A stretch of 64,000 nucleotides of DNA from Flavobacteriales bacterium (GTDB lineage: Bacteria > Bacteroidota > Bacteroidia > Flavobacteriales > Flavobacteriaceae), in assembly GCA_027066995.1 (NCBI GenBank), contig JAMOMQ010000166.1:192-64191 (forward strand), in the 5' to 3' direction. The stretch's first letter is position 1, and every line of letters starts with the position of its first letter. This document shows, in pieces, positions 2,187 to 57,919 of the stretch. The position numbers were made by a program, and so were the translations under genes. The notes beneath the pieces are model-generated. The model worked only from the letters and a program-made list of their open reading frames with translations, searched no databases and was not told the origin of the DNA.

Positions 2187-2243
2187 ATGCGTTATGATTA
2201 TGAAATACAGGTAAACACAATCTATGTATAAATTCTAAAATTT

Positions 2244-35686: not shown

Positions 35687-36250
35687 ATGTTAACAGGCAT
35701 CATCATAGCAGGCGGCCAAAGTAAAAGAATGGGATTTGATAAGACACAAATAGTTTATCAAAACCTAACTTTTATGGACCGTGCGGTGCAACTACTAACG
35801 ACTGTTACTTCCGAAATTATTATCAGCAGCAACCAGCCACAATCCGAATATCCATATCCGGTTATTAAAGACAAATATCCAAATATAGGTCCCATAGGCG
35901 GATTGGTCAGTTGCTTGCCTCTAATAAAAACGGAATATGCCATAATTTTACCGGTAGATTTGCCTTTATTTTCCGGGGAACTTATTCAAAAGCTTATACA
36001 ATCATCGGATTTGACCAAGCAAATCAATATTTTAAGCATTGACGGCCGGCCTCAAATGTTAACCGGCATTTATCATAAATCAGTGCAAACTTTGATTGAA
36101 AAACAGATAGAAAAAAAGGATTACACACTGCGTCATTTGTTAAACACCGCTACATATAAAATGATTGATGCTACTACTTACCGGCATTATTTCTTTAATG
36201 TTAACCGCCCCGAAAATTTAAAAATACTCAAAAACGAATATGAAAAATAG
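35687..36250 (+). CDS. MobA/MocA-like nucleotidyltransferase (molybdenum cofactor guanylyl/cytidylyl-transferase family)
   Basis: LTGIIIAGGQSKRMGFDK N-terminal NTP-transferase signature, 187 aa. Confidence 0.75.
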   Translation: MLTGIIIAGGQSKRMGFDKTQIVYQNLTFMDRAVQLLTTVTSEIIISSNQPQSEYPYPVIKDKYPNIGPIGGLVSCLPLIKTEYAIILPVDLPLFSGELIQKLIQSSDLTKQINILSIDGRPQMLTGIYHKSVQTLIEKQIEKKDYTLRHLLNTATYKMIDATTYRHYFFNVNRPENLKILKNEYEK

Positions 36251-37928
36251 ACAACAAGACATTTGGCTAAAAGCAGCAGTTATAGGCAGTATTTGGGCTA
36301 GTTTTGAAATAGTCTTCGGAAGTTTTTTTCACAGTTTGCGTCTCCCCTTTGCCGGTACATTTTTAACCTTTACCTCCATAATTTTACTGGTTGCTTTTTC
36401 ATATAAATGGCAAGACAATAATTTGTTTATTAAGGCCGGTATCGTTGCTGCACTAATGCGTTCTCTAATGCCGACATCGGTTATTTTGGGGCCGCTTATC
36501 GGTATATTGACCGAAGCATTTATTTTTCAATTGGCTCTTAATTTATTGGGACGAAATATTTTGGCTTTTAGTATAGCAGCCATTTTAGCAATGTTTAGCG
36601 CTATATTGCACAAAATTGTCAGCATTATATTGATTTACGGTTTTGATATAGTTAGAATATTGGGAAATCTATACCATACGCTACTGCATATAACACATAT
36701 AAAGTTACCTGTAAACCAACTGCTGTTCATAGTGATTGGCACATATACATTTTTGGGCATATTGGCTGCCATAATCGGCCAAACCGTAGGCAAAAAATTG
36801 GCATCAGCAGGCTCTCAAACCAAGATTTCATTACAAGAATGGCATCTCAAAAACGGTTTATTCTACATTCAACATTTTAAATACAATTCCAAATATATTT
36901 TTTTGCATTTGATTATTCTCATGTTCTTTTTAATGATATTGGAATTTTATCCGCTGTATTATTGTTTGTTGCCTTTCACTTTGTATATGGGTTTTCTTTT
37001 TAAACGTTACGGCAAATCTTTACGACGCTTGGCCAAACCTCTTTTCTGGATTCAATTGATTATTATTGTAATGATGGCTGTTTGGCTTTGGAACAACAAA
37101 CTGGAAGGACTGATGATTGGTCTCAAAATGATAATAAGAGCTATATTGGTGGTATCTACTTTTACAGCAATTAGTGTAGAACTCAAAAACCCTTTGGTTA
37201 AAGCTTTACTTTACAAAAAAGGTTATTCGCAATTGTATGCGACTTTGGGACTGGCAACCTCAGCCGTTCCTTTTATATTAAAAAGCATTTCAAGTAATAA
37301 AAAAAGCTTGGTTTATCCTTTGCAAACGCTGAGAAAAGCTATTGGTTTGTCAGATGTCTTACTACAAGAATTCAGCAAGCACATGCATCAAAAAAATCAG
37401 ATATTTATTATATCCGGGCCTACACGAAGTGGCAAAACCACTTTTTTAAAAGAAGTAATATTACAAATAAAAAACACTGACCCCAACAAAAGAATTGGTG
37501 GACTTATCGCACATGGTATGGACGTTAACGGTTACCGGTTCGGATTTAATATTGAAGATATTACAACCGGAGAAAAGGCCTATCTTTGTAGTCAAGAACC
37601 TGAAGATGGGGCTATCAAAATAGGACGTTTTTATTTTTCAACAAAAGGACTTGAGTTTGGTAATAAAGCACTCACCAAACATCTAGACAACTTAGACTTA
37701 TTAGTTATTGATGAAGTCGGTTATTTGGAATTACAAGGCAAAGGCTGGTTTGAATCCATAGAAAAAGCCATGCAAAAAGACTTAACCATTATAATGGTGG
37801 TGCGCAAACGCATATTGGAACAAATCCTCAATCTATGGCAAAACAAACAATTTATAGTGGTAGATATTGAGAATAACCGGCCTGAGTTTATTGTTGACAC
37901 CGTTACAACAAATAAAACGTCCCAATAA
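36240..37928 (+). CDS. Fusion of a polytopic membrane domain (~380 aa) with a C-terminal P-loop NTPase (THEP1/DUF2478-like)
   Basis: At least 9 hydrophobic helices, then Walker A (ISGPTRSGKTT) and Walker B (LLVIDEVGYLE). The start overlaps the upstream gene by 11 nt. Confidence 0.6.
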   Translation: MKNRQQDIWLKAAVIGSIWASFEIVFGSFFHSLRLPFAGTFLTFTSIILLVAFSYKWQDNNLFIKAGIVAALMRSLMPTSVILGPLIGILTEAFIFQLALNLLGRNILAFSIAAILAMFSAILHKIVSIILIYGFDIVRILGNLYHTLLHITHIKLPVNQLLFIVIGTYTFLGILAAIIGQTVGKKLASAGSQTKISLQEWHLKNGLFYIQHFKYNSKYIFLHLIILMFFLMILEFYPLYYCLLPFTLYMGFLFKRYGKSLRRLAKPLFWIQLIIIVMMAVWLWNNKLEGLMIGLKMIIRAILVVSTFTAISVELKNPLVKALLYKKGYSQLYATLGLATSAVPFILKSISSNKKSLVYPLQTLRKAIGLSDVLLQEFSKHMHQKNQIFIISGPTRSGKTTFLKEVILQIKNTDPNKRIGGLIAHGMDVNGYRFGFNIEDITTGEKAYLCSQEPEDGAIKIGRFYFSTKGLEFGNKALTKHLDNLDLLVIDEVGYLELQGKGWFESIEKAMQKDLTIIMVVRKRILEQILNLWQNKQFIVVDIENNRPEFIVDTVTTNKTSQ

Positions 37929-38098
37929 ATATTTTCCCATCATTTATTCAATAAAATACAGGCTTATACAACTTTTCGCCACGTTTTTAAATTTATAATA
38001 GCAAATAAATATTAGAATAGTCCAAAATTTTTATGATTTTAATATAACAAAACCATAAGAAGGAATAATTTTTGTAATTTTATAAAAAAATAATAATC

Positions 38099-38656
38099 AT
38101 GAAAATCTATTTTTATATTTTGATGTTGACAAGTTTGATTTTTTCTTGTGCCAATACAAAAAAAAGTTCCGGCAACCAAAAACCGGCTACTCATCAAACT
38201 GTCACTGATTCGTTAAATTGGCAAAACAAATATGGTTTTAAATATACCATACCGCCCCATTGGCAAACTACCGTTTCAGATTTAGAAGCCACCGATTTAC
38301 AAGGACATATCAAAAGTGTTGAATTTGATTATAAAATAAATGACAATGCAAATTTGCAAATGGTTTTTCACCCCGGAGAATCCGGCTTAAAACTATTTAA
38401 TACCTATTACAATTCACGACGAAAAAATCTTGGGCAAACAACCATAAATAAATTGCAAGCTGTCAAAATAACCGAACAAATATTAACCGACGGCAAGGGA
38501 CATCCTTTAGCCAAGCCGGTCAACCGCACCAAAATTTTTCTTTTAAATTCTGATAAAAGCGCATGCTTAGAGCTAAATTTTGAATTAAAAGGTCAAGATC
38601 CAAAAGCTTTGGCCGCGTTTGAATCTTTTTTAAAAAATATTAAACCCGCTAAATAG
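38099..38656 (+). CDS. Hypothetical lipoprotein
   Basis: Lipobox LIFSCA. 185 aa with no recognisable motifs. Confidence 0.6.
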   Translation: MKIYFYILMLTSLIFSCANTKKSSGNQKPATHQTVTDSLNWQNKYGFKYTIPPHWQTTVSDLEATDLQGHIKSVEFDYKINDNANLQMVFHPGESGLKLFNTYYNSRRKNLGQTTINKLQAVKITEQILTDGKGHPLAKPVNRTKIFLLNSDKSACLELNFELKGQDPKALAAFESFLKNIKPAK

Positions 38657-38717
38657 ATAATAATTACCACTGTTTCTACAGTCTTCAATACTAAAATCAA
38701 AATTTAAATTCTTTCCA

Positions 38718-39668
38718 ATGATAAAAAAATTAATTCTCTTTTCCGGTTTACTTTTGTCTCAGATATTTTATGCACAAAATATATTGGGTATAGATGTGTC
38801 ACATCATCAAGGTTCTATTAACTGGACACTGGTAGCTAACGACGGTAAAGTTTTTGCTTATTGTAAATCTACCGAAGGTTTTACTTATGACGATCCCAAT
38901 TTTCAAACTTATATGACCAACGGACACAATGCCGGTGTGGTTATGGGTGCCTACCATTTTGCCCGTCCCGATAACAATAGTGCTATTGATGAAGCCAATC
39001 ATTTCTTGTCTGTAGCGGGTAATTATATCGGTGACGGCTACTTACCGCCGGTATTGGACTTTGAAGATCCTAACACATCTACACATTTGGATCAAATATA
39101 CAGCTCACAAGGATTGACCAATTGGATACAAACTTGGCTTAACAGAGTTGAAAGCGTCTCCGGTGTTAAACCTGTTATCTATACAAACAGCCATTATGCC
39201 AATTTTTTACAGAGTTCTTTAAATACTTATGGTTTGTGGATAGCCAAACCCGGCACCAGCCCCACTACACCTCCTACCAATATGGGAATTTGGAATGATT
39301 GGCAATTTAAACAATACTCATGGCAAGGTAATGTCAACGGCATATCCGGTTATGTCGATTTAGATGTTTTTAACGGCACAACTTCAGACTTCCTTAATTT
39401 AACGGCTCTTGACAATTTTACACAACAACCACTAAATATTTATCCCAATCCCGTTGAAAATATATTAAATTTAAAATTTGAAAATAATTTAACAATCAAG
39501 CAGTTGGATATTTATGACAGCAATGGCCGGTTGATAAAAAGCTTTTCCGGAAATTATAGCCAAATACCTGTAAATTCATTACAGCCAGGTTTTTATATTT
39601 TACATATCCAGACAAAAAATGGCAGAGATTTCAGACTCAAATTTATAAAAAAACAAGGCGTTTTATAA
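38718..39668 (+). CDS. GH25 muramidase (lysozyme) with a T9SS C-terminal sorting domain
   Basis: GIDVSHHQGSINW ... AYCKSTEG ... GAYHFARP is typical of GH25. C-terminal LNIYPNPVENILNL ... GFYILHIQTKNG ... KFIKK is a T9SS CTD. Confidence 0.85.
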   Translation: MIKKLILFSGLLLSQIFYAQNILGIDVSHHQGSINWTLVANDGKVFAYCKSTEGFTYDDPNFQTYMTNGHNAGVVMGAYHFARPDNNSAIDEANHFLSVAGNYIGDGYLPPVLDFEDPNTSTHLDQIYSSQGLTNWIQTWLNRVESVSGVKPVIYTNSHYANFLQSSLNTYGLWIAKPGTSPTTPPTNMGIWNDWQFKQYSWQGNVNGISGYVDLDVFNGTTSDFLNLTALDNFTQQPLNIYPNPVENILNLKFENNLTIKQLDIYDSNGRLIKSFSGNYSQIPVNSLQPGFYILHIQTKNGRDFRLKFIKKQGVL

Positions 39669-39806
39669 ACCCGTTCTTTCCTGTTTTTTAAATACTAAAT
39701 TTAAAATGATAACATTTGCTTATTTATATTTAACCTTAACTAAGGTCAAATAATTTTTTTATATTTTTATACATCAAAATATCTCTAATAAAAAAAAACA
39801 AATCTC

Positions 39807-41378
39807 ATGAAAAACAAAATCCTTATAAACTTATTATTATTAATTGGTGTTCAATTGACTTTTAGCCAAAATAAAATTGATAATATCCAATTAAAATGGA
39901 GTCCGGTATTTAATGATCATAGAATGAATGCTTTTAAATATCTCGGAAAAGATACTCAAAATAACATTTATTTCAATCAAAAAGATTTTACTTCAAAAAG
40001 CAATTTTACTTCAAATTTATCTACTAAATTGAGCAAATTGAATAAAAATCTATTAAAAAAAGATTATAAAGTTAAGTTCGATAAAAAAACATATCCCATA
40101 TTTATGTTAATGTTGAATAAAGAATTGCACCTTATTTCAACAACAAAAGACAAAGAAAGACAAAAAACATTTTTTATAGATCAAACTATAAATAAAAAAT
40201 CTTTTAATGTAAGTAAGCAACAATCAAAATTAATTGAAATAGATTTTAAAAATGATAAAAAATATATCCTGTCCGATATTAAACATTATTTTTCGCCGGA
40301 TTCTACCAAACTATTAATTAAATATGTTTTTTCCGGAAAAGGAAAAGAAAAATTTTATCTTGGTTTACATGTTTTTGATACTAACTTGAACAAGTTGTGG
40401 GGGAAAAAAATACAGATGCCTGTCGTAAAAAGATATTTTAAGCTACTTGATTTCAAAGTTGATAATGACGGAAAAGTATTTGTATTAGGAAAAGTATACA
40501 AGAACAACAGAAAAAATGATTATTACCGTAAGAAAAAGAACTTCTATTTAACGGTTCTTGCCTATAATAATGGAAGCAAAATGAAAGAATATAAAATTAA
40601 CGGCCATCAAAATTTATTTGATGCTAAACTCAAAATCGGTAATGATTCAAACCTTATAATTAGTGGTCTTTATTCCAAAGATAAGTCTTTAGGTGCAGAC
40701 GGTTATTTTTTTATGAAGATAGACACTAAACAACAAAAAGTGTTATATAACAAATACGAAAAATTTAACTTGGACTTACTAACGGAAGGAATGGATGAAA
40801 AGGAAAAAAAGAAAACATTAAAATTAATTAAAAAAGATAAATTCAAAGGTTTGGAACACCAAATCATTAAAAATGTCGTAGCAAAACCTGATGGTGGTGT
40901 TATTATTTTTTCAGAATATAATCACTTTGAAGAGTCTTTAAATTTTTACAAGTATGGCACTTTTGATAAAAATGGGACTAAAGAGTTAAGTTTTTCGTAT
41001 GGTAATATTTTAATTTTAAATCTTGACGAAAAAGGAAATATTATTTGGCATAAGACTATTAATAAATTTCAATACGCAGAAAATCTATATATTAATGAAG
41101 CTATGTCTTTTATGGTGATTGATCGCAAAGATAAAATTTACATTATCTATAATGGTAAAGGAAAAACGCATAGAAAAAAAGATGCTATTACTAAGTTAAA
41201 AATAATTGATAAAGCTGACGGATCAGTTGACACCAAAGTATTATTTAAAATGAAAGATAAAAAAGTTTTGTTCATACCCAAGTTTAGTATAAAAATTGAT
41301 AAAGACGAATATATACTTGTTAACCATAATAAAGCAAAAAAATCTTATAGGTATGCAAAACTAAAATTTGTGGATTAG
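39807..41378 (+). CDS. Secreted Lys/Asn-rich hypothetical protein (AT-rich orphan)
   Basis: Signal peptide. 523 aa, very Lys-rich. Recurrent D-G-K/G-hydrophobic beta-strand patterns suggest a repeat/propeller-like fold. Noticeably more AT-rich than its neighbours (by eye). Confidence 0.6.
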   Translation: MKNKILINLLLLIGVQLTFSQNKIDNIQLKWSPVFNDHRMNAFKYLGKDTQNNIYFNQKDFTSKSNFTSNLSTKLSKLNKNLLKKDYKVKFDKKTYPIFMLMLNKELHLISTTKDKERQKTFFIDQTINKKSFNVSKQQSKLIEIDFKNDKKYILSDIKHYFSPDSTKLLIKYVFSGKGKEKFYLGLHVFDTNLNKLWGKKIQMPVVKRYFKLLDFKVDNDGKVFVLGKVYKNNRKNDYYRKKKNFYLTVLAYNNGSKMKEYKINGHQNLFDAKLKIGNDSNLIISGLYSKDKSLGADGYFFMKIDTKQQKVLYNKYEKFNLDLLTEGMDEKEKKKTLKLIKKDKFKGLEHQIIKNVVAKPDGGVIIFSEYNHFEESLNFYKYGTFDKNGTKELSFSYGNILILNLDEKGNIIWHKTINKFQYAENLYINEAMSFMVIDRKDKIYIIYNGKGKTHRKKDAITKLKIIDKADGSVDTKVLFKMKDKKVLFIPKFSIKIDKDEYILVNHNKAKKSYRYAKLKFVD

Positions 41379-41390
41379 ATTTTATTTTTT
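41251..41390 (+). repeat. Direct repeat copy 1 (last 126 nt of the orphan gene plus 12 nt downstream)
   Basis: 140 bp, identical to 41817..41956 except for 2 substitutions. Confidence 0.95.
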
Positions 41391-41816
41391 CCTGTTTTCA
41401 ACAATAGGTCACCTAATAAATATAGGTATAGACTATTCTATATTTAATAATACGAAAAAGGAAGCTAACATAAATAAAATTTAACGACAATCACGTTAGA
41501 AGCAGCAATACCCATAAGAGGTTCTTGCGTTAAATTTATGATTTTTGAAACGTTAAAGGCTCTGCTGTTCGAAGTGTCCGAAGGCACGTAGGGCACAAGT
41601 TCAGAGCATTTAGTGGAAAAAATCTATAAATTTAGCAAGGTTCTCTTAAGGTGTCCTTTTTTGCTACTTTTTTGGACAAGCAAAAAAGTTGAATAAAATA
41701 TAAGTTGAATAAAATACAAATTAAAATAATCGGGTCACCAAAAATATATAAATAATATTAAATAGCTATTTTTTAGCAACTTACAGAAACTATATTAAAA
41801 TCATGTCGAAAACAGG
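41391..41816 (+). mobile_element. 426-bp non-coding insert bounded by 11-bp terminal inverted repeats (MITE-like or remnant integrative element)
   Basis: The left end cctgttttcaa and the right end tcgaaaacagg (reverse complement cctgttttcga) sit exactly at the junctions with the two 140-bp direct repeats. No ORF of 60 aa or more. Confidence 0.4.
41505..41690 (+). ncRNA. Candidate structured RNA (long imperfect hairpin plus a terminator-like hairpin)
   Basis: 41512-41546 pairs with 41618-41651 (~31 bp). It has G-U pairs on the plus strand that would be C-A mismatches on the minus strand. Inner hairpin gtgtc-cgaa-ggcac. Distal hairpin cttttttgc / gcaaaaaag at 41656-41688. Confidence 0.35.
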
Positions 41817-41956
41817 TGAAAGATAAAAAAGTTTTGTTTATACCCAAGTTTAGTATAAAAATTGATAAAGACGAATATATACTTGTTAGCCATAATAAAG
41901 CAAAAAAATCTTATAGGTATGCAAAACTAAAATTTGTGGATTAGATTTTATTTTTT
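41817..41956 (+). repeat. Direct repeat copy 2 (orphan copy of the gene 3' end)
   Basis: Matches 41251..41390. The substitutions are ttc>ttt (synonymous) and aac>agc. Confidence 0.95.
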
Positions 41957-42112
41957 TAATTCATTTAACCATACCTAAATTTACATAATAAGATTTATAC
42001 AGTCATTTTAAGATGTTTTGATTGTGTAAAATTGTTGCCGGGTAGTATCACTAATTATTAAGTCATTTAGTTATTGCAACAAACTTATTCTTTTAAAACA
42101 AACAGCTTATAA

Positions 42113-42146
42113 AAAAACGAGTGGCCATGGCCACTCGTTTTTTATC
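42113..42146. terminator. Bidirectional rho-independent terminator
   Basis: aaaaaaacgagtggcc-at-ggccactcgtttttt, a perfect palindromic stem. Confidence 0.9.
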
Positions 42147-42163
42147 CCTATAAATGTTTATGT

Positions 42164-44230
42164 TTATTTCACCACCACATTGTCCACTCTATAAGTAGAC
42201 GTACTGTTAGGATTATCTCCGCCTACATATTTAAAGGCTATATAAACCGTTTGACCGGCATAGGCTGACAAATCAATATCACCGGAATTAATCCAAGCAT
42301 GATTAGGATCGGAATTGGTAGCAATACGGGCGTTTAAAGGTTGCCAAGTGGCACCTGCCACATCTACACCGTTAAAGTCTGTCGAAATCCAAACACTTAA
42401 TGCATCGTGTTTCCAATAGGCTTTGGCCGTATCAAAATTTAAAACACTATTGCCGGACACTTGTATGCCGGGAGACACCAACCAACTGATATTAATACTT
42501 TCTCCGGATTGATAAGCATTCATTTCGGCATAATGGTTAACTGCATTGCTATAAAAACCTCCCAACCAAGGACGACTTCCGGCTTCAGTATAATTAGTCC
42601 ATCCGGACAAATCAATAGGTTCTCTTTTAACCACACTACCAAAACTTTCCATCAGTTTTTCGGCATTGCATCGTGTCTGTTGCAAGTCAAAATCTTGAAT
42701 ATTTCTGATATAAATTTGATAATCACCGTTATAAATACCCAATATACCTGTCACCGTTCCATTGCCTGAGGGTGTATGTGCATCGGCAAAAAGTGCATAA
42801 CCGCTGGTTCTGACTATAACATCATCACCATTACAGTCTTTCAAAATACGATTGGCACTCTTAGGATGACGTGGATAATTATCACTGTCTGAAAAAGCCA
42901 ATTGTTCTCCAACATCTTTATATTTAAATTGCACATTAGTAACTTTTACCAGTTTACCCAAGTCTTCCAAATTAAAATCGGTCAAATCTTTAAGTTCGGG
43001 CACCGGATCAGCGGTTTCGTCCAATACAAACAAGTGGTCTTGATCTACATCATCGGTAATTCGCCCTATACCACCATTGTAAATACCTCCCAAAACATAT
43101 TCATCATATTTTTTGGCAATATATAAACCTTGTGCTTTAATACGCAGTTTGTTACCCACTTTATAACCTCTACGGTATAAATCTCTCATATTTAAACCTA
43201 TTTGTAAACCGCCTGTGGCATCTTGCACATATATTTTTTTATAGAAATTGCCAAATTCGTCATCAGCAGTAACCGTAACATCAAAAACCAAGTCATTGGT
43301 GATTTGCGTCAAGTTACCATTGGGCGATAAGGCTTTGATATCTGCAATAGTTGCATTGGCTTCTGCCGGTGGTGCACAATAATCGGCTGCTGTGGTGCCG
43401 TCACAACGGGCATCGGTAAACTGCACATCATTAGTGTCTCTAATGTATAATTGAAAATCGGAATTATATTTACTCAAAACAGCTACTATGGTGCCGTTAC
43501 CGGCAGGAATTTTTTGACCGGCAAAGTCGGCATAACCGCTGTTTCTCAAAATTATATCACGGCCAACACAATCTACAATGGTTTTATTGACACCGGAAAC
43601 GCCTTCATAAGCATAAGTAGAACATAAATCGGCTTGATCAAATTGCACATTGGTAAATCGCACCAAAGTATTGATATCATTTTCAGAAAAATTGGTCATA
43701 TCAACATCTTTAGGAACAATTTCAACCGGTGCATCACAAGACGGAATTAAGATATCCGGTATCTGACTGGGTGAAATACGACCGATACCGACACCTCCGT
43801 GGGTTAAAGTATAAGCTTTACCTAATTTATAAACTTCATGGTCTTTGGCAACAAACAAGCCTTTGGCTTTGACATATACTTTTTTACCAACGGGAAATTC
43901 GGTATACATATCTCTTTTGTCAACGGCAATACTGATACCGGCAGTCGGATTGTCAGGGCTGTCTTGTAAAACCAATGTAGTGTAAAAATTACCATGCTCG
44001 TCACTGGAAATAACATAGCCCGAAAATACCATGTCGGTGGTAATTTGTGTGATTTCTCCGGTAGGACTCAACGCCAATACATCACTGATGGTAGCATTGG
44101 TTGTAATATTTTCTGTTTGACATGCCACTTGGGGTTTATCCCAATTATCGTCATGCACACATGATGAAACCGCCATAACTCCCAGCAGTATCATCAGTGC
44201 TTTAAAATTATTTTTTAGTATATTTTTCAT
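42164..44230 (-). CDS. Surface lipoprotein with two tandem OB-like (DUF5689-like) modules and a C-terminal choice-of-anchor-J-like domain
   Basis: Lipobox AVSSCV. Two ~230-aa repeats (NATI.D..ALSP.G..TQIT.D.VF ... GNFY ... NVQF ... GNGT..G.L..YN.D.Q.YIR). The C-terminal TVYIAFKYVGG...YRVDNV resembles the N-domain of the 11193 protein. Confidence 0.6.
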   Translation of the reverse strand: MKNILKNNFKALMILLGVMAVSSCVHDDNWDKPQVACQTENITTNATISDVLALSPTGEITQITTDMVFSGYVISSDEHGNFYTTLVLQDSPDNPTAGISIAVDKRDMYTEFPVGKKVYVKAKGLFVAKDHEVYKLGKAYTLTHGGVGIGRISPSQIPDILIPSCDAPVEIVPKDVDMTNFSENDINTLVRFTNVQFDQADLCSTYAYEGVSGVNKTIVDCVGRDIILRNSGYADFAGQKIPAGNGTIVAVLSKYNSDFQLYIRDTNDVQFTDARCDGTTAADYCAPPAEANATIADIKALSPNGNLTQITNDLVFDVTVTADDEFGNFYKKIYVQDATGGLQIGLNMRDLYRRGYKVGNKLRIKAQGLYIAKKYDEYVLGGIYNGGIGRITDDVDQDHLFVLDETADPVPELKDLTDFNLEDLGKLVKVTNVQFKYKDVGEQLAFSDSDNYPRHPKSANRILKDCNGDDVIVRTSGYALFADAHTPSGNGTVTGILGIYNGDYQIYIRNIQDFDLQQTRCNAEKLMESFGSVVKREPIDLSGWTNYTEAGSRPWLGGFYSNAVNHYAEMNAYQSGESINISWLVSPGIQVSGNSVLNFDTAKAYWKHDALSVWISTDFNGVDVAGATWQPLNARIATNSDPNHAWINSGDIDLSAYAGQTVYIAFKYVGGDNPNSTSTYRVDNVVVK

Positions 44231-44249
44231 TATTCAATATTTTTATTAA

Positions 44250-46985
44250 TTAAAATCTGACACTTAATTGGACATAATAGGTGCGTCCGTAACCATACCA
44301 GTATTTATTACCGAAAACCGGTGTCGTATTGACAACTTTATCTTGGTAATATTCGGGGAAAGAAGCTTTTCTCGATTGTTCAAAACCACCTGTTCTTGCA
44401 GCGGTATCCAAAGCATTGGTCATAACGGCAAACAAGCCGATATAATATTTTTTGATTTTCCAGGATTTACCACCAACAAAATTAAGATGGAAAAAATCTT
44501 CAAGTTGTTCTTGCTCCCATACCTCTGCCAAAGTTTCGTCGTTTACACCGGGATAGGCTTCATTTAAGATAGGATCGGTATAAAACTGTTCTGTTCTGAT
44601 CAAAGGCGACACCGATACATAATTTTGATTGTAATAGTTCAGGTTAGCCCCGATAAACCAATAATGCGGATCGCGGTATTCCAAGCCCAAAGTATAAGCT
44701 TCTTGCGGGCCATTGGCTACCTTATAATCCGTTAATAAACTCTTTCCTTGATATTGGGCGTCAAATACATCCGATGCTAAATACAAATCGGGATTATTGC
44801 GGTAAGTATGCACACCGTAAGTAGCTGCAAAACTGGCTTTAACGGTAGGTGACAATTGCGCCTCCAAGCCAAACTCTACTCCTCTGTGTGCTTTATCCTC
44901 ATTGGTTAAAATTTGCGTCACAAAATAGCTGGCAACATTATTACCCAAATTAACGTTTTGTGCATAATAACGACTGATTTCGGTTGCTTGACTAACATAA
45001 TAGTAATAAGCCGATAAGCGTGCTTTGACCAATGACGAACGGAAAATATAACTGGCATCCAAACCGGTCATTTTTTCATTTTTAATATCCGGTGTAATTT
45101 CGTTGTTGACACGTGCATTATAAAATACGTTTTTCCATTCGGGCGCTTGAGAAGTGCTGGCAAAATGCATGTCAATCAAATGTTTACCCGAAAACTTAAA
45201 GGTTGCCCCTAATTTTAAACCGTAATTTGTAAAATCCACTTTGTCACTTTTACCATAAGAATTATCTTCAAACAAACCGTTTTTAAATAAACCTTCTCTT
45301 TGATAAGAGGTCATACCATAACTACCGGTTACAAAGAAGTCAATTTTTTTGCCGGACACTTGCACTTGTGCAAAAGTTTTTAAATCGTTGCCCAAAAGAT
45401 TAAAATCATAATAGAACTTATCATCTACACCAACATTGGGATTGCTGTCAAGCAGGTTATAAGACTTATTGGTATATTGATCAATGTTCAAAGCATATTG
45501 GCTACCCATCAAATCACGCATTTTGGCATAACCTTCATTGGTGTAATTTTTATACTGAACACCGGCGTTTAAAACGATGTTATCTTTTAAGACTCTGTCG
45601 TAAATACTGCTAAAAGTAATCACTTGGTCGTCTATACGATCGTCATACCAAAAATAGCGGGCGGCACCATTATAGTTTTCATTGATGGCATACAAACTGT
45701 TCCAGTCAATTTGTCCGTTTGCCAAAAAATCTTCTTTGGCATAATAAGCTTGTACCGGATCATTTTTTGCTTCCCAATAACTGGGCAAATAACGGTAATA
45801 AGTCGGATCAGGATTGGGTGCATTATAATATTGCAAACGACTGTTGGCCGTATAGCCTTTTTGAAAAGCAATATTGGTTTGCAAATCCGATTTATCATCT
45901 ATGGTCCAGTAATGACTTAAAATGGCTGTAGGTTCAAATATGCGTTTAATACGGGCATTGCGTTGCTCACCGTCTTGATAGCCCCAATAAGAATTATATT
46001 TGGTGCCTTTCAAATCAAATACTTCTTGTGTTTGCGGTGCTGATTTACCGCGTCTGTTTGGTGTTACAAAAGCGGTTAAATTAATACTATGCTTATTATT
46101 CAATTTTTTTTCAGCTGCAACAAATATACTGTTAGCATCGTAAAAAGTGCCTTCAAAATGTCCTTCTTGCGCCCAACGACGGGAAGCCGATACAGCAAAA
46201 GCCCAACCGTTTGACATCAAACCGGTGGCATAACTTCCCATAACTCTGTTACGATAACTACGATTAGTAGCTGCATAAGACAATTTTTTGGTAGCTCTGA
46301 TTTGAGAAGCTCTCAAAACAAAATTGGTTGTACCTAATAAACCTCCAAAATTATAATCGGAAGCCGACATACCTTTATAGGTTTCCCTGTTACGCAGCAT
46401 ATCATTCAAACCGCCCCACTCACTCCATTGCGGTCTGTAATCATAAGCTTTATTCATCTCTACACCATTCATTAATACGGAACTGTATTTAGAATCCAAC
46501 CCGCGCAATTTGAAACGTGCCGAACTAAATTGATAAGACACCGCCCGTTCAAAAACATCGGAAGATGCTTGCAACAAACCGGAAATATTTTCCGAACCCG
46601 AATTGTCATCACTTAAGTTTTCATCATCCAAACTGATAATACCTTGTTCTTCAATGTCGGAAATGGCAGGTATTAAGATTATACTGCCCAAATCGGTTTC
46701 TAATCCTTTAACAATTACCACAGGCATCTGCTGCTTGTCATATCCGGGATGATCAATCACCAGAATTTGTTCTCCGGTTGGCACTAATGTAATTTCAAAA
46801 GCACCTTGAACATCAGTAGTTCGCTGTTTATCTGAATTTAAAATTTTAACCACAACCCCACTCATGGGTTTTCCGGTATCGGCATCAATTATAATTCCTT
46901 TGACACTTCCGGTTTCTTTTTGTGCATACGTTATAGAAACCAAGAGCAAAAGAATTAAACTTATAAACTTGTTTAATTTTTGCAT
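44250..46985 (-). CDS. TonB-dependent receptor with an N-terminal carboxypeptidase-regulatory-like domain
   Basis: Start moved to MQKLNKFISLILLLL (ATG at 46985). GSVKGIIIDADTGKPMSGVVVKI is a CarbopepD_reg-like stretch. Long barrel with a terminal YVQLSVRF. Confidence 0.85.
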   Translation of the reverse strand: MQKLNKFISLILLLLVSITYAQKETGSVKGIIIDADTGKPMSGVVVKILNSDKQRTTDVQGAFEITLVPTGEQILVIDHPGYDKQQMPVVIVKGLETDLGSIILIPAISDIEEQGIISLDDENLSDDNSGSENISGLLQASSDVFERAVSYQFSSARFKLRGLDSKYSSVLMNGVEMNKAYDYRPQWSEWGGLNDMLRNRETYKGMSASDYNFGGLLGTTNFVLRASQIRATKKLSYAATNRSYRNRVMGSYATGLMSNGWAFAVSASRRWAQEGHFEGTFYDANSIFVAAEKKLNNKHSINLTAFVTPNRRGKSAPQTQEVFDLKGTKYNSYWGYQDGEQRNARIKRIFEPTAILSHYWTIDDKSDLQTNIAFQKGYTANSRLQYYNAPNPDPTYYRYLPSYWEAKNDPVQAYYAKEDFLANGQIDWNSLYAINENYNGAARYFWYDDRIDDQVITFSSIYDRVLKDNIVLNAGVQYKNYTNEGYAKMRDLMGSQYALNIDQYTNKSYNLLDSNPNVGVDDKFYYDFNLLGNDLKTFAQVQVSGKKIDFFVTGSYGMTSYQREGLFKNGLFEDNSYGKSDKVDFTNYGLKLGATFKFSGKHLIDMHFASTSQAPEWKNVFYNARVNNEITPDIKNEKMTGLDASYIFRSSLVKARLSAYYYYVSQATEISRYYAQNVNLGNNVASYFVTQILTNEDKAHRGVEFGLEAQLSPTVKASFAATYGVHTYRNNPDLYLASDVFDAQYQGKSLLTDYKVANGPQEAYTLGLEYRDPHYWFIGANLNYYNQNYVSVSPLIRTEQFYTDPILNEAYPGVNDETLAEVWEQEQLEDFFHLNFVGGKSWKIKKYYIGLFAVMTNALDTAARTGGFEQSRKASFPEYYQDKVVNTTPVFGNKYWYGYGRTYYVQLSVRF

Positions 46986-47144
46986 TGTAATACGATTTTT
47001 ATTTTTATTTGATTCTCCTGCAAACTTACATCTTTTTTTGATATTTATTTTGTAATTTTGACAGGTTTTACAAAAATAAACCGCCTTTTCTTTTGCAAAA
47101 AGATACATTATATTATAACGACAGATTTATTAAAAAAAAGAACA

Positions 47145-48227
47145 ATGAGAAAACTATTAATTTTTAGCTGGTTAAGCATTATTTTATGGTCATGCGGCAC
47201 CACACAAACCACCACCAAGGTCAATAAAAGGTCAACTATAAATACCGGAAAAAAATATTTGGCGCGAACCATAGCATTTTACAATTTGGAAAATTTGTTT
47301 GATACCATTGACAATCCCACAACTCGCGATGAAGATTTTACCCCCAACGGCAGGGATCATTGGACCAGTGAAAAATACCATAAAAAATTACAAAATTTGG
47401 CAACAGTAATAGCCGACATAGGCAAAAAAGAAACCGGCACTTCACCGGCGGTTATCGGGGTAGCTGAAGCTGAAAACCGGGGTGTTCTTGAGGATTTAAT
47501 CAAAACGCCTCCCTTGGCAGGTCAACAATATGGCATTATACATTTCGACTCACCCGACCGTCGTGGTATTGATGTTGCCCTCTTGTATAAAAAACGTTTT
47601 TTTAAACCTATCAATTTTAAAAAATATCCATTATTAATATATGATAGTGACGGCAAACGTATTTATACCCGTGATCAATTGGTTGTTACAGGTTTGCTGG
47701 ACGGTGAAAAAATCAGTTTTATTGTAGACCACTGGCCTTCAAGACGCGGTGGTGAAGCACGTAGCCGTCCCAAGCGTATCAAAGCAGCCCAACTGAGCAA
47801 GAAAATAGCCGACTCTCTTTTACAATTAGACCCCCAAGCCAAAATAGTCATAATGGGCGATTTAAACGACGATCCCAGCAGCCCGAGTGTCAAACAAGTA
47901 TTTAGAGCTACAGCAGATAAAAGCAAAGTGTTAGACGGTGGCTATTATAATGCCATGGAACATTTTTATAATCGTGGTATTGGCACCTTGGCTTATAGAG
48001 ACGGGTGGAACCTTTTTGATCAAATAATTATTTCATCGGGCTTGTTAAAAAATACCAATGACCACAATTTTCATTTCTGGAAATCAGGCATTTACAGCAA
48101 AGAATTTATGAAAAACCGCAAAGGCCGCTACAAAGGATATCCAAAAAGGACTTTGGTTGGCGGCCAATTTATAGGTGGCTATAGCGACCACTTCCCTACA
48201 TATATCATAATAGTAAGAGCATTGTAA
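47145..48227 (+). CDS. Secreted lipoprotein nuclease/phosphatase of the EEP family
   Basis: Start moved to MRKLLIFSWLSIILWSCG (lipobox). AFYNLENLFD, GVAEAEN, MGDLNDD and GYSDHFP are EEP catalytic blocks, as in extracellular nucleases. Confidence 0.75.
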   Translation: MRKLLIFSWLSIILWSCGTTQTTTKVNKRSTINTGKKYLARTIAFYNLENLFDTIDNPTTRDEDFTPNGRDHWTSEKYHKKLQNLATVIADIGKKETGTSPAVIGVAEAENRGVLEDLIKTPPLAGQQYGIIHFDSPDRRGIDVALLYKKRFFKPINFKKYPLLIYDSDGKRIYTRDQLVVTGLLDGEKISFIVDHWPSRRGGEARSRPKRIKAAQLSKKIADSLLQLDPQAKIVIMGDLNDDPSSPSVKQVFRATADKSKVLDGGYYNAMEHFYNRGIGTLAYRDGWNLFDQIIISSGLLKNTNDHNFHFWKSGIYSKEFMKNRKGRYKGYPKRTLVGGQFIGGYSDHFPTYIIIVRAL

Positions 48228-49817: not shown

Positions 49818-50282
49818 ATGCAACCACTCAATGGCACATATTATTGCAAAATGGATTCTAAAGGTAGAATAATGCTGCCTGCCGAATTGCGCAAGCAATT
49901 ATCTGATTTGCAAATGGATAGTTTTGTGCTTAAACGAGCAGTTTTTCATAATAATTTAGAAATGCATCCTAAAAACGAATGGAGCAAATTAATGGAAAAA
50001 TTAAACAAGCTCAACCGTTTTAAGAAAAAAAACATAGACTTTCTGACACGATTTTTGGCAGGCGTGCGCAATGTTAATATTGACGGGACAGGGCGTCTGC
50101 AAATTCCGAAAGATTTGGTAGCTGTAGCCGGTCTTAAAAAAGAAGTGGTCATTGCTTCCAGCATTAACATACTTCAAATTTGGGATAAAGATGCTTATGA
50201 ACAATTCTTACAAGCCAGTGTCGAAGACTTTTCCGACTTGGCCGAAGAGGTAATGGGTGATATAGATTTTGATAATGAGTAG
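49818..50282 (+). CDS. mraZ: Transcriptional regulator MraZ
   Basis: Start moved to MQPLNGTYYCKMDSKGRIMLP. Two SpoVT/AbrB-like halves (DSKGRIMLP and DGTGRLQIP). Confidence 0.92.
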   Translation: MQPLNGTYYCKMDSKGRIMLPAELRKQLSDLQMDSFVLKRAVFHNNLEMHPKNEWSKLMEKLNKLNRFKKKNIDFLTRFLAGVRNVNIDGTGRLQIPKDLVAVAGLKKEVVIASSINILQIWDKDAYEQFLQASVEDFSDLAEEVMGDIDFDNE

Positions 50283-51204
50283 TTCCAATCAAACATATCA
50301 TGTGCCGGTATTGCTCAAAGAAAGTGTGGACGGCTTAAACATTAGGTCTAATGGCACTTATGTAGATGTAACTTTTGGCGGGGGTGGTCATTCGAAAGAA
50401 ATTTTAAAGCGCTTGGGCCCCGAAGGCCGTTTGTATGCTTTTGACCAAGATGCCGATGCCGCACAAAACAAAATAGACGATCCACGGTTTACATTAATTG
50501 AAGCCAATTTTGCCAATCTTAAAAATTATTTGAGACTTGAAGGCGTCAAAGAGATAGACGGGTTACTAGCAGACTTGGGTATTTCATCCCATCAAATCAA
50601 TAAACCCACGCGAGGTTTTTCAACACGTTTTGATGAAAAATTGGACATGCGAATGGATAAATCAGCCGAATTATCTGCCTATGATATCATCAACAAGTAT
50701 GACGAATATGAACTTAGAAAACTGTTTTGGCAATACGGTGATTTGAAAAATGCAGCCACTTTGGCCAAGAGTATTGTCAAAGCACGGGAAGAAGCCCCTA
50801 TTAAAACCACCGGCCAACTCAATGAAATTGTCGCCAAACATTTTCCAAAATCGAAAATGAATAAATTCTTGGCCAAATTGTATCAAGCTATCAGAATTGA
50901 AGTAAACGGCGAGATTGAAGCTCTAAAGAATATGTTGCAACAAGCGGCAATGATAATTAAACCCGGCGGCCGGTTGAGTGTAATATCCTATCACTCTCTC
51001 GAAGACCGCTTGGTCAAGCGATTTATTAGAGACGGCCTGTTTGAGGGTCAACCTGAAAAAGATTTTTACGGCAATATCAGTGTGCCTTTTAAAAAGACAG
51101 GCAAACTAATTGTGCCGGATGATGACGAAATTGCTGCAAACCCACGGGCACGCAGCGCCAAACTGCGCATAGCGGAACGAACACAAGCACCTTATAAGCT
51201 ATGA
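50269..51204 (+). CDS. rsmH: 16S rRNA (cytosine1402-N4)-methyltransferase
   Basis: YHVPVLLKESV, DVTFGGGGHS, DLGISSHQ, ISYHSLEDR and NPRARSAKLR motifs. Confidence 0.95.
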   Translation: MIMSSSNQTYHVPVLLKESVDGLNIRSNGTYVDVTFGGGGHSKEILKRLGPEGRLYAFDQDADAAQNKIDDPRFTLIEANFANLKNYLRLEGVKEIDGLLADLGISSHQINKPTRGFSTRFDEKLDMRMDKSAELSAYDIINKYDEYELRKLFWQYGDLKNAATLAKSIVKAREEAPIKTTGQLNEIVAKHFPKSKMNKFLAKLYQAIRIEVNGEIEALKNMLQQAAMIIKPGGRLSVISYHSLEDRLVKRFIRDGLFEGQPEKDFYGNISVPFKKTGKLIVPDDDEIAANPRARSAKLRIAERTQAPYKL

Positions 51205-51506
51205 GTATTTGGTCTATCATTAAAGCGGATTATTTGACCAATGAAAACGCCACAAAAAACTGGCTGTTTATATTGATGTTGGTAGTAATGGGATTGACTA
51301 TTATCAATCTGTCACATTCGGCCGATGCCAAGGTTAAAAAAATAGTTAAACTCAATAAGGAAGTGAAAGCTTTACGCTCCGAATATGTCGAACTCAAAGC
51401 CAGAGTCATTAAACGCAAAATGGCGAGTGATGTATATACAAGATTACAATCGGAAGGTTTTATACTATCAAAAAAACAACCGGTAAAAATTAAATTAAAA
51501 AAGTAA
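51201..51506 (+). CDS. ftsL: FtsL-like cell division protein
   Basis: 101 aa with a single TM helix followed by a coiled-coil. It sits between rsmH and ftsI. ATGA overlap with rsmH. Confidence 0.7.
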   Translation: MSIWSIIKADYLTNENATKNWLFILMLVVMGLTIINLSHSADAKVKKIVKLNKEVKALRSEYVELKARVIKRKMASDVYTRLQSEGFILSKKQPVKIKLKK

Positions 51507-53468
51507 ATGAATCAAAACAATGCAAATATTACCAAAAGAAGTATGACCGTTTTTGCGGGCTTATTCTTGTTTGCAATACTCATTGTCATACAATTGATTC
51601 GCATACAATATATTGACGGCAATAAATACCGTGCTTTGGCTCAAAAATATACCGTAAAAGAATTTACCATTAAGGCCAATCGCGGTAATATTTATACTGC
51701 AAAAGGTAATATTTTGGCAACTTCTGTTCCAAAATATGATATCGCTTTTGACCCGACCGCACCTTCTACCAAAAACTTCAATCGTTATATTGACGGCTTG
51801 TGTGTGCAATTATCAAGATTTACAGGTAAACCGCAAGCCCAATGGAAAAGAGCTTTTGTCAAGGCACGTCAAAATAACCGGAAATATATCAAAGTAGCCA
51901 AAGGCATTGACTACTCCGATTATCAACGTATTAAAAAATTCCCGTTATTCAAATTAGGTATGAATAAAGGCGGATTTATAGCCGAATTGCACAGCGAACG
52001 CAGTTATCCTCTCGGGGGAGTGCTCAAACGCACCATCGGTTTTGATCGTGGTAAAGGCAACCGTGCCGGTATTGAAGGCGCCTATGCTACTTACTTACGT
52101 GGTAAAGACGGCATGCAAAAAAAACAAAAAATAAAATATGGCGTTTGGAAACCTTTAAGCGACATAAATGATATTGAACCGCAAGACGGTTACGATGTGA
52201 TTACTAATATCGATATTGACATGCAAGATATGGCACATCAAACCTTGCTAAAACAATTGCAAAAATTTGAAGCCGACCATGGCAGCTTGGTCATCATGGA
52301 TGTCAAAACCGGTGCTGTCAAAGCAATGGTCAATTTGGGCAAAACACAATCGGGGCGTTATGAAGAACTTAGAAATTATGCCGTTTACGAAACACACGAA
52401 CCCGGTTCCACCTTTAAACTTTTTTCGGTAATGGCATTGCTCGAAGACAAAGTGGCTGACACCTCCGATATCGTTGATACCGGCAAGGGCGTTTACCAAA
52501 TTTATAACAAGCGGGTCCGCGATGCCCACCATGGCGGCATGGGTAAACTTACCCTAAAACAAGTGCTTGAAAAAAGCTCAAATGTAGGTGTCGTTAAAAT
52601 GGTATATGAACATTATAAAGACCATCCTGAAAAATTTGTAAACCGCCTCTATAATTTCGGCATTCACGAAAAAGTAAAAATTGACATCAAAGGAGAAGGG
52701 CAACCACATATTCCGGACCCCAAAGATGACAATTGGAGTGGTATTTCTTTACCCTGGATGGCTTACGGATACGGTGTGGAATTAACCGATATACAAATTT
52801 TAACTTATTATAATGCCATTGCCAATAACGGTAAGGTTATGAGACCTTATCTGGTTCAACAAATCAAATCCTTTGATAAGACCATCAAAAAATTTAAACC
52901 CGAAGTGTTAAATCATTCGCTGGCTTCAAAAGAAACAATCGGTAAAATGCAAGACATGCTCAAGGGGGTTGTTTTGCGTGGCACCGCTACCAATATTAAA
53001 AATCCGTATGTCAGCATAGCCGGTAAAACAGGCACGGCACAAACCGAATATTGGAAAGGTAAAGGACAATACATTGCTTCATTTGTAGGTTATTTTCCGG
53101 CTGAACAACCAAAATATTCCATGATAGTGGTGATACACAAACCCAATCCGGAAAAAGGCTACTACGGCAATATTGTAGCTGCCCCTGTCTTTAAAACACT
53201 TGCCGAATATATTTACGGCAAAACCCCTCGTAAAGTTGAACTTGCCGAAGCCCGTAGTCAAACCGAAACAAAAACCGAAAAAATAGCACAAAAATATAAA
53301 ACCGTGATGCCCGATTTACACGGAATGCCATCAAAAAGTGCTGTATATATTTTAGAAAACATGGGATTAAAAGTACGCCTGAACGGTAGTGGCAAAGTGG
53401 CAAAACAATCGATTCCAAGAGGTATAAAAGTCAAAAAAAATCAAGTAGTTGAACTTAAATTAATATGA
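51507..53468 (+). CDS. ftsI: Penicillin-binding protein 3 / peptidoglycan D,D-transpeptidase FtsI, with a C-terminal PASTA domain
   Basis: SxxK (GSTFKL), SxN (KSSNVG) and KTG (GKTGTA) motifs, plus a C-terminal PASTA-like MPDLHGM...LKVRLNGSGKV. Confidence 0.93.
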   Translation: MNQNNANITKRSMTVFAGLFLFAILIVIQLIRIQYIDGNKYRALAQKYTVKEFTIKANRGNIYTAKGNILATSVPKYDIAFDPTAPSTKNFNRYIDGLCVQLSRFTGKPQAQWKRAFVKARQNNRKYIKVAKGIDYSDYQRIKKFPLFKLGMNKGGFIAELHSERSYPLGGVLKRTIGFDRGKGNRAGIEGAYATYLRGKDGMQKKQKIKYGVWKPLSDINDIEPQDGYDVITNIDIDMQDMAHQTLLKQLQKFEADHGSLVIMDVKTGAVKAMVNLGKTQSGRYEELRNYAVYETHEPGSTFKLFSVMALLEDKVADTSDIVDTGKGVYQIYNKRVRDAHHGGMGKLTLKQVLEKSSNVGVVKMVYEHYKDHPEKFVNRLYNFGIHEKVKIDIKGEGQPHIPDPKDDNWSGISLPWMAYGYGVELTDIQILTYYNAIANNGKVMRPYLVQQIKSFDKTIKKFKPEVLNHSLASKETIGKMQDMLKGVVLRGTATNIKNPYVSIAGKTGTAQTEYWKGKGQYIASFVGYFPAEQPKYSMIVVIHKPNPEKGYYGNIVAAPVFKTLAEYIYGKTPRKVELAEARSQTETKTEKIAQKYKTVMPDLHGMPSKSAVYILENMGLKVRLNGSGKVAKQSIPRGIKVKKNQVVELKLI

Positions 53469-54952: not shown

Positions 54953-54958
54953 AGAATT

Positions 54959-56179: not shown

Positions 56180-56199
56180 TAAGAAAAGATTGACCAAGT

Positions 56200-56721: not shown

Positions 56722-56722
56722 A

Positions 56723-57913: not shown

Positions 57914-57919
57914 ATATTT

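What the first reader, a model, noticed from the sequence alone, without database searches (positions are those of the whole stretch)
41251..41956. 426-bp insert with terminal inverted repeats, flanked by a 140-bp duplication of the upstream gene's 3' end
The last 126 nt of the 39807..41378 ORF plus 12 nt downstream (41251-41390) recur at 41817-41956 with only 2 substitutions. The intervening 426 bp begins with cctgttttcaa and ends with tcgaaaacagg. This is an 11-bp inverted repeat with 1 mismatch, placed exactly at both junctions. The insert has no ORF of 60 aa or more. A 140-bp duplication is far longer than a transposase target-site duplication. It looks more like attL/attR of an element that integrates into a gene's 3' end and carries a replacement copy. 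However, the cargo is tiny and non-coding and it has TIRs. I cannot place this combination in a known element class.
Basis: seen in the sequence. Interest (0 to 1): 0.7.

Follow-up and report, generated by a model that had tools for sequence, protein, structure and literature searches.

The report
Small transposon with 140-bp target duplication
The 426-bp insert is one copy of a small, non-coding, multi-copy mobile element whose insertion duplicated 140 bp of the target, far more than transposons normally duplicate, which kept the neighbouring gene intact.

Summary
A 426-bp non-coding insert (41391-41816) carries 12-bp terminal inverted repeats (CCTGTTTTCAAC / GTCGAAAACAGG). It lies between two 140-bp direct repeats that differ at two positions.

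It is one copy of a MITE-like family with at least eight loci in the same uncultured Bacteroidota population. A related strain (L022) has the empty site: one copy of the 140 bp and no element. The 140 bp is therefore a target-site duplication, not an att site or an element-borne replacement copy.

Other copies are flanked, flush with their inverted repeats, by unrelated duplications:
- 48 bp, with an orthologous empty site in a sister species;
- 88 bp, seen in two assemblies;
- about 172 and about 230 bp, in one complex locus.

The only known precedent I found for long, variable duplications is IS1549 and IS1634 of the IS1634 family (8-514 bp, mechanism unknown). No transposase partner was found, so family membership is untested.

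The element also carries a roughly 240-nt, highly conserved, strongly folding hairpin module. It matches no Rfam family and its function is unknown.

Verdict: a real feature and a new variant of a known kind, of moderate interest.

The parts
39807..41378 (+). 523-aa orphan gene whose 3' end lies inside the duplicated target. It stays intact because the duplication keeps a full copy upstream of the element.
   Evidence: ORF list. No Pfam hit. The only homologues are itself and one 24% hit.
41251..41390 (.). Target-site duplication, copy 1: the last 128 nt of the gene including the stop codon, plus 12 nt.
   Evidence: It is 100% identical to the single copy in the empty site L022.
41391..41816 (+). 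Non-autonomous MITE-like element of 426 bp, written in the orientation left inverted repeat to right inverted repeat.
   Evidence: Absent from the empty site L022. Homologous copies at 86-97% identity occur in L013, L014, L015, L010, L011, L012, L026 and L027.
41391..41402 (+). Left terminal inverted repeat CCTGTTTTCAAC. The family consensus is CCTGTATTCAAC and the first 2-3 bases vary between copies.
41452..41698 (+). Conserved long-hairpin module of about 240 nt. It consists of an outer stem, a side hairpin, a long imperfect arm with its apex at 41574-41587, and an A/T hairpin at 41657-41690.
   Evidence: The whole element folds with z = -6.9 on the + strand and -5.7 on the - strand. This is the best-conserved part of the family. 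No Rfam match.
41699..41780 (+). Variable AT-rich segment. It includes part of a 16-bp tandem duplication (41686-41717). In other copies it carries indels or is deleted.
41805..41816 (-). Right terminal inverted repeat, CCTGTTTTCGAC when read on the - strand.
41817..41956 (.). Target-site duplication, copy 2: a non-functional duplicate of the gene's 3' end. It carries both substitutions relative to the empty site.
   Evidence: The same two substitutions are present in L003 and L020.
42112..42143 (.). Perfect 16+16 palindrome flanked by A and T runs: the likely bidirectional terminator shared by the two convergent genes. The insertion moved it 566 bp further from the 523-aa gene.
   Evidence: Inverted repeat I18. 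It draws terminator-type weak Rfam hits.

Best explanation
The insert is one copy of a family of small (about 380-450 bp), non-coding, non-autonomous transposable elements (MITE-like) with 12-bp terminal inverted repeats. It landed between two convergent genes. Its two ends were joined to the two target strands at points 140 bp apart, with a 5' stagger: one cut 128 nt inside the 523-aa gene and the other 12 nt past its stop codon. Gap repair then copied the 140 bp onto both sides. Because the duplication is so long, the gene keeps an intact 3' end. The leftover copy on the far side is a decaying fragment. What is shown: the insertion polymorphism, the target origin of the repeat, the multi-copy nature of the element, and the recurrence of long, variable duplications (48, 88, 140 bp, and probably about 172 and 230 bp). 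What is inferred: that a transposase supplied in trans, most likely a DDE enzyme behaving like IS1549/IS1634, does the joining, and that the stagger is set by where each end independently engages the target. The long repeats should also allow precise loss of the element by homologous recombination, releasing a circle of element plus one repeat. One locus (L013) has the arrangement expected if such a circle re-entered another copy of the element.
For: Empty site: the reverse complement of L022 matches window 41214-41390 at 100% over its positions 1-177, and window 41817-47184 at 99.5% over its positions 38-5404. It therefore holds one copy of the 140 bp and no element.

Other copies carry direct repeats flush with both inverted repeats:
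- L014 has 48 nt with 1 mismatch. The site is also occupied in L023 and L024. A sister species has the orthologous single-copy site without the element (L029).
- L026 and L027 have 88 nt with 1 mismatch, in two independent assemblies.
- In L013, a repeat of about 172 nt at roughly 87% identity flanks the outer ends. A 231-nt stretch between a full element and a 79-bp mini-element is a 96.5% copy of a nearby gene's 3' end plus terminator, flush with the element ends.

The repeat sequences are unrelated to one another, so they come from the targets. The family has at least eight loci with conserved ends. The 79-bp mini-element keeps only the two ends. The element has no coding capacity: the one recurrent 43-aa ORF accumulates almost only non-synonymous changes. 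Precedent: IS1549 and IS1634 make direct repeats of 8-514 bp, and the IS1634-family end consensus C-----YT fits CCTGTATT and CCTGTTTT (PMC2266710).
Against: No transposase with matching ends was found. There was none in the window, none in the fetched loci, and none in plasmid, phage or viral collections. The enzyme class and the assignment to the IS1634 family are therefore inference. The fit to the end consensus rests on only three specified positions. Several short-read contigs join halves of different copies (L001, L007, L008, L015, L028). Any single contig across this repeat, including the window, deserves caution. However, the repeats flush with both ends, together with the empty sites, tie the two flanks of the window, L014 and L026/L027 copies to each other. 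The L013 locus is complex, and its 172-nt repeat (87% identical, with internal REP-like repeats) could pre-date the element.
Confidence: 0.82

Rival explanations
1. A site-specific integrative element. The 140-bp repeats would be attL and attR, formed by recombination between an element-borne attP that mimics the gene's 3' end and the chromosomal attB.
For: The occupied and empty alleles have the [140][E][140] versus [140] form that att recombination also produces. The repeat covers a gene's 3' end, as in many integrative elements.
Against: Other copies of the same element are flanked by unrelated repeats of 48 and 88 bp at unrelated sites, so the repeat is not carried by the element. There is no integrase in or near the element. 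The repeats stop exactly at the terminal inverted repeats.
Confidence: 0.03
2. An assembly artefact. Two separate copies of the repeat element, one after the 523-aa gene and one before a stray 140-bp copy, were collapsed into one in the window.
For: The core is a multi-copy repeat. Several MAG contigs are clearly hybrids across copies or end inside it (L001, L002, L007, L008, L009, L015, L028). L003 carries a variant core next to copy 2.
Against: The empty site L022 shows that the two flanks are adjacent in a related strain, sharing exactly one 140-bp copy. That is what a simple insertion predicts and not what two distant loci predict. The same architecture is seen for other copies in independent assemblies (L014, L026, L027). 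In assembly GCA_054036375.1, the contig carrying copy 2 (L020) ends inside the element while the gene-side contig (L008) runs on into another copy. This is the pattern a mis-join would give over a window-like true order.
Confidence: 0.04
3. A retroelement-type (target-primed reverse transcription, SINE-like) insertion of a structured RNA. Its second-strand nick would fall at a variable distance, giving variable duplications.
For: Variable and sometimes long target duplications are typical of target-primed reverse transcription (established knowledge of non-LTR retrotransposons). The element has a strongly folding, conserved core.
Against: Both ends are conserved terminal inverted repeats. A mini-element keeps only the two ends and not the structured core. 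There is no 3' tail and no 5'-truncated series. No reverse transcriptase was seen in the window ORFs scanned.
Confidence: 0.04
4. A diversity-generating retroelement pair: a variable repeat at the gene's 3' end and a template repeat downstream.
For: There are two copies of about 140 bp. One lies at the C-terminal end of a secreted-looking orphan protein and the other a few hundred bp downstream.
Against: There are only two differences, and they are not adenine-specific (C>T and A>G). The repeat runs through the stop codon. No reverse transcriptase was found in the neighbouring ORFs scanned. The empty-site allele shows that the second copy arrived together with the element.
Confidence: 0.01

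Closest known systems
IS1549 (Mycobacterium smegmatis) and IS1634 (Mycoplasma mycoides), IS1634 family
   Same: They have terminal inverted repeats and, upon insertion, long direct repeats whose length varies from copy to copy (reported as 8-514 bp, with no mechanistic model; PMC2266710). The family end consensus C-----YT is compatible with CCTGTATT and CCTGTTTT.
   Different: Those are 1.5-2 kb autonomous insertion sequences encoding a DDE transposase, in Actinobacteria and Mollicutes. This element is 0.38-0.45 kb, non-coding, from an uncultured Bacteroidota lineage, and no partner transposase has been identified. Most IS1634-family members make 5-6 bp duplications.
Bacterial MITEs (for example Correia, RUP, ERIC/IRU, Nezha; named from general knowledge)
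   Same: It is small, non-coding and multi-copy, has terminal inverted repeats, lies in intergenic regions or 3' UTRs, folds into a long hairpin, and includes internally deleted derivatives.
   Different: Known MITEs have short, fixed duplications (2-10 bp). Here the duplications are 48-140 bp or more and vary in length. The long hairpin is an internal module that does not involve the terminal repeats, and it is better conserved than the rest of the element.
Integrative elements that target the 3' ends of genes (att-site duplication)
   Same: A direct repeat covering a gene's 3' end flanks the insert, so the gene stays intact.
   Different: The repeat differs at every copy and derives from the target. 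There is no integrase, and the element has transposon-type inverted ends.

Membership tests
MITE (non-autonomous TIR transposon) | Small size and no transposase coding capacity | tested here: met
   The copies are 378-443 bp. The longest ORF is 43-53 aa, and changes between copies are almost all non-synonymous.
MITE (non-autonomous TIR transposon) | Terminal inverted repeats conserved across copies | tested here: met
   The ends are CCTGTWTTCRAC at both ends in the window, L013 (mini-element), L014, L026 and L027. The L013 full element has a degenerate right end. The left or right end alone is visible in L010, L011, L003 and L020.
MITE (non-autonomous TIR transposon) | Multiple dispersed copies in one genome or population | tested here: met
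   At least eight distinct flanking contexts were seen in the same samples.
MITE (non-autonomous TIR transposon) | Target-site duplication and presence/absence polymorphism | tested here: met
   Empty sites are L022, for the window copy, and L029, for the L014 copy. The duplications are flush with the inverted repeats. Their length is atypical.
MITE (non-autonomous TIR transposon) | A cognate autonomous IS sharing the same ends | tested here: inconclusive
   None was found in the window, the 29 loci, or the viral, plasmid or phage collections. The host genome itself could not be searched.
IS1634 family | DDE transposase of the IS1634 clade | not testable with these tools
   No transposase candidate is available.
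IS1634 family | Ends matching C-----YT | tested here: met
   CCTGTATT and CCTGTTTT fit the consensus in PMC2266710. The criterion is weak, with only three specified positions.
IS1634 family | Long, variable-length direct repeats (the IS1549/IS1634 behaviour) | tested here: met
   Repeats of 48, 88 and 140 bp are clean. Repeats of about 172 and about 230 bp occur in the complex L013 locus.
Site-specific integrative element (att) | The same att core at every insertion and an adjacent recombinase | tested here: not met
   The repeats are unrelated between copies. No recombinase was found in the neighbourhood.
Diversity-generating retroelement | Adenine-specific TR/VR mismatches and a nearby reverse transcriptase | tested here: not met
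   The mismatches are C>T and A>G. The seven adjacent ORFs, 35687-47108, show no reverse transcriptase. The second copy is absent from the empty allele.
Any Rfam RNA family (for the hairpin core) | A covariance-model match | tested here: not met
   No hit inside 41391-41816 reached gathering score. The only hit at E <= 10 lying wholly inside the insert is an 18-bit match to the A/T hairpin.

The most novel reading that the evidence does not exclude
The family could be mobilised by a transposition system not yet described in Bacteroidota, one that routinely joins its two ends to target sites 50-230 bp apart. In this reading the conserved hairpin module of about 240 nt, which is kept better than the rest of the element yet is dispensable in a mini-copy, would be a functional RNA or DNA cofactor or a host-directed regulatory module rather than filler. 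The long duplications would make insertions reversible by homologous recombination and would release element-plus-target circles that can shuttle pieces of genes.
Probability: 0.12. Interest if true: 0.8.

Novelty: new variant of a known kind. Interest (0 to 1): 0.55.

Why it matters
Long, variable target duplications are a rare oddity of transposition. According to the 2008 review read here (PMC2266710), no mechanistic model had been proposed for IS1549/IS1634. A small, abundant, non-autonomous family offers a compact natural data set for working out how the two ends choose their sites. It comes with clean occupied and empty alleles and a series of duplication lengths (48, 88, 140 bp and probably more).

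The family also shows a consequence that short duplications cannot have. An insertion that cuts inside a gene leaves the gene intact, and it can be reversed precisely by homologous recombination.

On the practical side, the element breaks or mis-joins short-read MAG assemblies of this lineage.

Tried and rejected
- **Rfam.** A search of the whole window at gathering threshold, and of 41100-42200 at E <= 10, found nothing in the core.
- **tRNA/tmRNA scan.** Nothing near the element.
- **Other copies in the window.** None.
- **Genome-collection scan** with a 19-mer from the core. It gave only a chance hit in a Prevotella MAG, so the host species is not in that collection.
- **Plasmid and phage BLAST** of the element. 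No match.
- **Viral-contig scans** with each end. Only chance matches of 18-19 nt.
- **Search for a partner transposase.** Inverted-repeat scans with mismatches in the window and all loci found no second pair of ends 1-2.5 kb apart. Pfam scans of 17 window ORFs found no transposase, integrase or reverse transcriptase.
- **Orthologues of the 523-aa gene** as a route to empty sites. The gene is an orphan. The empty site came instead from a variant of the downstream DUF5689 protein.
- **RNA covariation.** RNAalifold predicted 41 pairs, none of them compensatory. The + strand folds better in all seven copies. The apex, however, reads as a C(UUCG)G or C(UACG)G tetraloop on the - strand. The strand and the function therefore stay undecided.
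- **The 43-aa ORF in the core.** Not conserved as a protein.
- **A possible shared motif, TTCCTGTTTTT, upstream of genes.** Not enriched.
- **Bacteroidetes-type promoter (TAnnTTTG), judged by eye.** One match lies in the variable part of the window copy, but other copies do not keep it.

Full report
**1. The observation**

Positions 41251-41390 recur at 41817-41956. The repeat is 140 nt with two substitutions (41273 C>T, 41323 A>G), and the match ends abruptly on both sides.

The 426 bp between the copies begins CCTGTTTTCAAC and ends GTCGAAAACAGG, which are complementary at 11 of 12 positions and flush with the repeats. The insert has no ORF longer than 43 aa.

One detail needs correcting. The repeat holds the last 128 nt of the 39807-41378 ORF, stop codon included, plus 12 nt downstream.

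**2. The insert is a multi-copy element**

There is no second copy in the window. Contigs from the same population show that the element is repeated.

- Contigs carrying the identical or near-identical 523-aa gene all run into the same element. They then either stop inside it (L002, L009) or continue into unrelated contexts: a transketolase locus in L001 and L007, and a cytochrome c peroxidase locus in L008.
- A 19-mer from the core retrieved six further loci from two JGI metagenomes. All of them align to the element at 86-99% identity.

Aligning the copies gives the anatomy of the family:
- The left end is C(C/A/T)TGTATTCAACAATAGGTCACC.
- A very well conserved module of about 240 nt follows.
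- Next comes an AT-rich variable segment with indels.
- The right end is AAAATCATGTCGAAAACAGG.
- One locus also holds a 79-bp mini-element made of the two ends only (L013:2908-2986).

At least eight different flanking contexts were seen. Several short-read contigs are hybrids between copies (L001, L007, L008, L015, L028). They are either assembler mis-joins or true recombinants.

**3. The 140 bp is a target-site duplication**

A variant of the downstream DUF5689 protein led to contig L022, from JGI sample 3300005095. Its reverse complement matches window 41214-41390 at 100% and window 41817-47184 at 99.5%, and the two matches overlap by exactly the 140 bp. This strain therefore has the two convergent genes side by side with one copy of the 140 bp and no element, which is the empty site.

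The single copy carries the copy-1 alleles. Both substitutions therefore lie in copy 2, the duplicate that is not part of a gene. L003 and L020 show the same two substitutions in copy 2.

**4. Long duplications are a property of the family**

- *L014.* The element (378 bp) is flanked, flush with its inverted repeats, by a 48-nt repeat with one mismatch. The same occupied site appears in L023 and L024. A sister species, whose neighbouring aminopeptidase is 79% identical, has the orthologous intergenic region with a single copy of that stretch and no element (L029).
- *Cytochrome c peroxidase / Ppx locus.* Two independent assemblies, L026 and the 150-kb contig L027, show a 433-bp copy flanked by an 88-nt repeat with one mismatch.
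- *L013.* A repeat of about 172 nt at roughly 87% identity flanks the outer ends of a full element and the mini-element. The 231 nt between them is a 96.5% copy of a sequence 2.1 kb away, namely the last 177 nt of a gene plus its terminator. It is flush with the inner ends of the two elements.

The L013 arrangement is what one expects from the following sequence of events. An element with a 230-bp duplication is excised as a circle by homologous recombination between its repeats, which restores the empty native site. The circle then recombines into another copy of the element nearby. This is inference. The 172-nt repeat also contains REP-like internal repeats and may be older than the element.

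The repeats at different copies are unrelated in sequence, so they are made from the target. Their clean lengths are 48, 88 and 140 bp.

**5. Mechanism**

The geometry is that of ordinary transposition with a 5' stagger, except that the two joins lie 48-140 bp apart. For the window copy, one join is between 41250 and 41251, inside the gene. The other is after 41390, 12 nt past the stop codon. Repair synthesis then duplicates the interval.

I infer a transposase acting in trans. The element has no coding capacity, and the 43-aa ORF that recurs in the core changes almost only non-synonymously between copies. The bases next to the joins are often A/T runs, but not always. I make no claim of a target motif.

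A consequence follows directly from the sequences. Insertions that cut inside a gene's 3' end leave a complete gene on one side. This is seen in the window, in the Ppx gene at L026, and in the L013 gene.

**6. Comparison with what is known**

[quoted passage not shown] It gives the family's end consensus as C-----YT (PMC2266710). The ends here fit that consensus, but only three positions are specified, so the fit is weak.

I could not find the partner transposase, so I do not file the element as a member of the IS1634 family.
- None turned up in 17 window ORFs.
- None turned up in any fetched locus.
- None turned up in the viral, plasmid or phage collections.
- The host species is absent from the genome collection.

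From memory only, the ends also resemble the CCTAGATTC-type ends of the IS1380 family. That is an untested lead, and that family makes 4-5 bp duplications. The library searches made here listed no paper describing a MITE with duplications of this length.

**7. The conserved core**

The element folds far better than shuffled sequence, with z = -6.9 on the + strand and -5.7 on the - strand. The fold is a long imperfect hairpin that does not involve the terminal repeats. It is the best-conserved part of the family, whereas the segment to its right is full of indels.

It matches no Rfam family. The evidence for selection on an RNA structure is equivocal:
- There are no compensatory pairs among 41 predicted pairs. 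The few one-sided changes are C>U changes that keep G-U pairs on the + strand.
- The + strand folds better in all seven copies tested, by 1.6-13.5 kcal/mol.
- Against that, the apex reads as C(UUCG)G or C(UACG)G on the - strand.
- The mini-element lacks the core, so the core is probably not needed in cis for movement.

Its function is unknown. I would guess a transcript-stabilising or terminating module, as in other MITEs, but with low confidence.

**8. Rivals**

- *att-type integration* is contradicted by the different repeats at different copies and by the absence of a recombinase.
- *A diversity-generating retroelement* is excluded by the mismatch pattern, the absence of a reverse transcriptase and the empty allele.
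- *An assembly artefact* is unlikely, because the empty site joins the two flanks through exactly one copy of the repeat. Independent assemblies also show the same architecture at other copies.
- *A retroelement mechanism* would explain the variable duplications. It does not fit the inverted ends or the ends-only mini-element.

**9. Verdict**

It is a MITE-like element with an unusually long (140-bp) target duplication, from a family that regularly makes duplications of 48-140 bp and probably longer. I rate it a new variant of a known kind and of moderate interest. The open points are the identity of the transposase, how the long stagger arises, and what the conserved hairpin module does.

Noticed in passing
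window 42112-42143: A perfect 16+16-nt palindrome (AAAAAACGAGTGGCCA|TGGCCACTCGTTTTTT) lies between the convergent 523-aa and DUF5689 genes. It is the likely bidirectional intrinsic terminator. Two Logan contigs (L004, L005) end exactly here.
   Followed up: partly
window 39807-41378: The 523-aa gene next to the element is an orphan. It has no Pfam domain, and its only database relatives are its own strain variants and one 24%-identical protein.
   Followed up: partly
window 41686-41717: A 16-bp tandem duplication (AAGTTGAATAAAATAT / AAGTTGAATAAAATAC) sits inside the element's variable part. It is present in some copies (window, L015, L026) and absent in L014. Contigs L002 and L009 break at its first unit.
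   Followed up: partly
L001, L007, L008, L015, L028 (contigs of MAGs GCA_054045365.1, GCA_054036375.1 and GCA_054012555.1, of ENA assembly ERZ27262665, and of JGI sample Ga0256834): These contigs join the left half of one element copy to the right half of another. They place the 523-aa gene next to a transketolase locus or a cytochrome c peroxidase locus, and the peroxidase gene next to aminopeptidase N. They are either assembler chimeras across a repeat of about 300 bp or real rearrangements between copies.
   Followed up: partly
L013:2700-2771 and L013:4266-4309: An exact 29-nt repeat (CTTCTCGATACATCCCGAAGCAAGTTCGG, two copies 43 nt apart) lies next to the 172-nt flanking repeat. There is also a separate 11-nt tandem array (ACGACTTAACT, about four units). 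This may be another small repeat family in the same organism.
   Followed up: no
L024 (Ga0256843_1005467): This JGI contig contains the 19-mer used for the metagenome scan, yet it was not among the six loci that scan returned. Copy counts taken from the scan are therefore lower bounds.
   Followed up: no
L001:5893-6000, L012: The copy next to the transketolase locus has a divergent right part and no recognisable right inverted repeat. It is probably a decayed or truncated copy.
   Followed up: partly
window 50269-59026: This is an ordinary cell-division and cell-wall (dcw) cluster, with mraW, mraY, ftsW and murG. It shows that the window is core chromosome of a Bacteroidota organism that has T9SS-sorted proteins, not a mobile island.
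   Followed up: no
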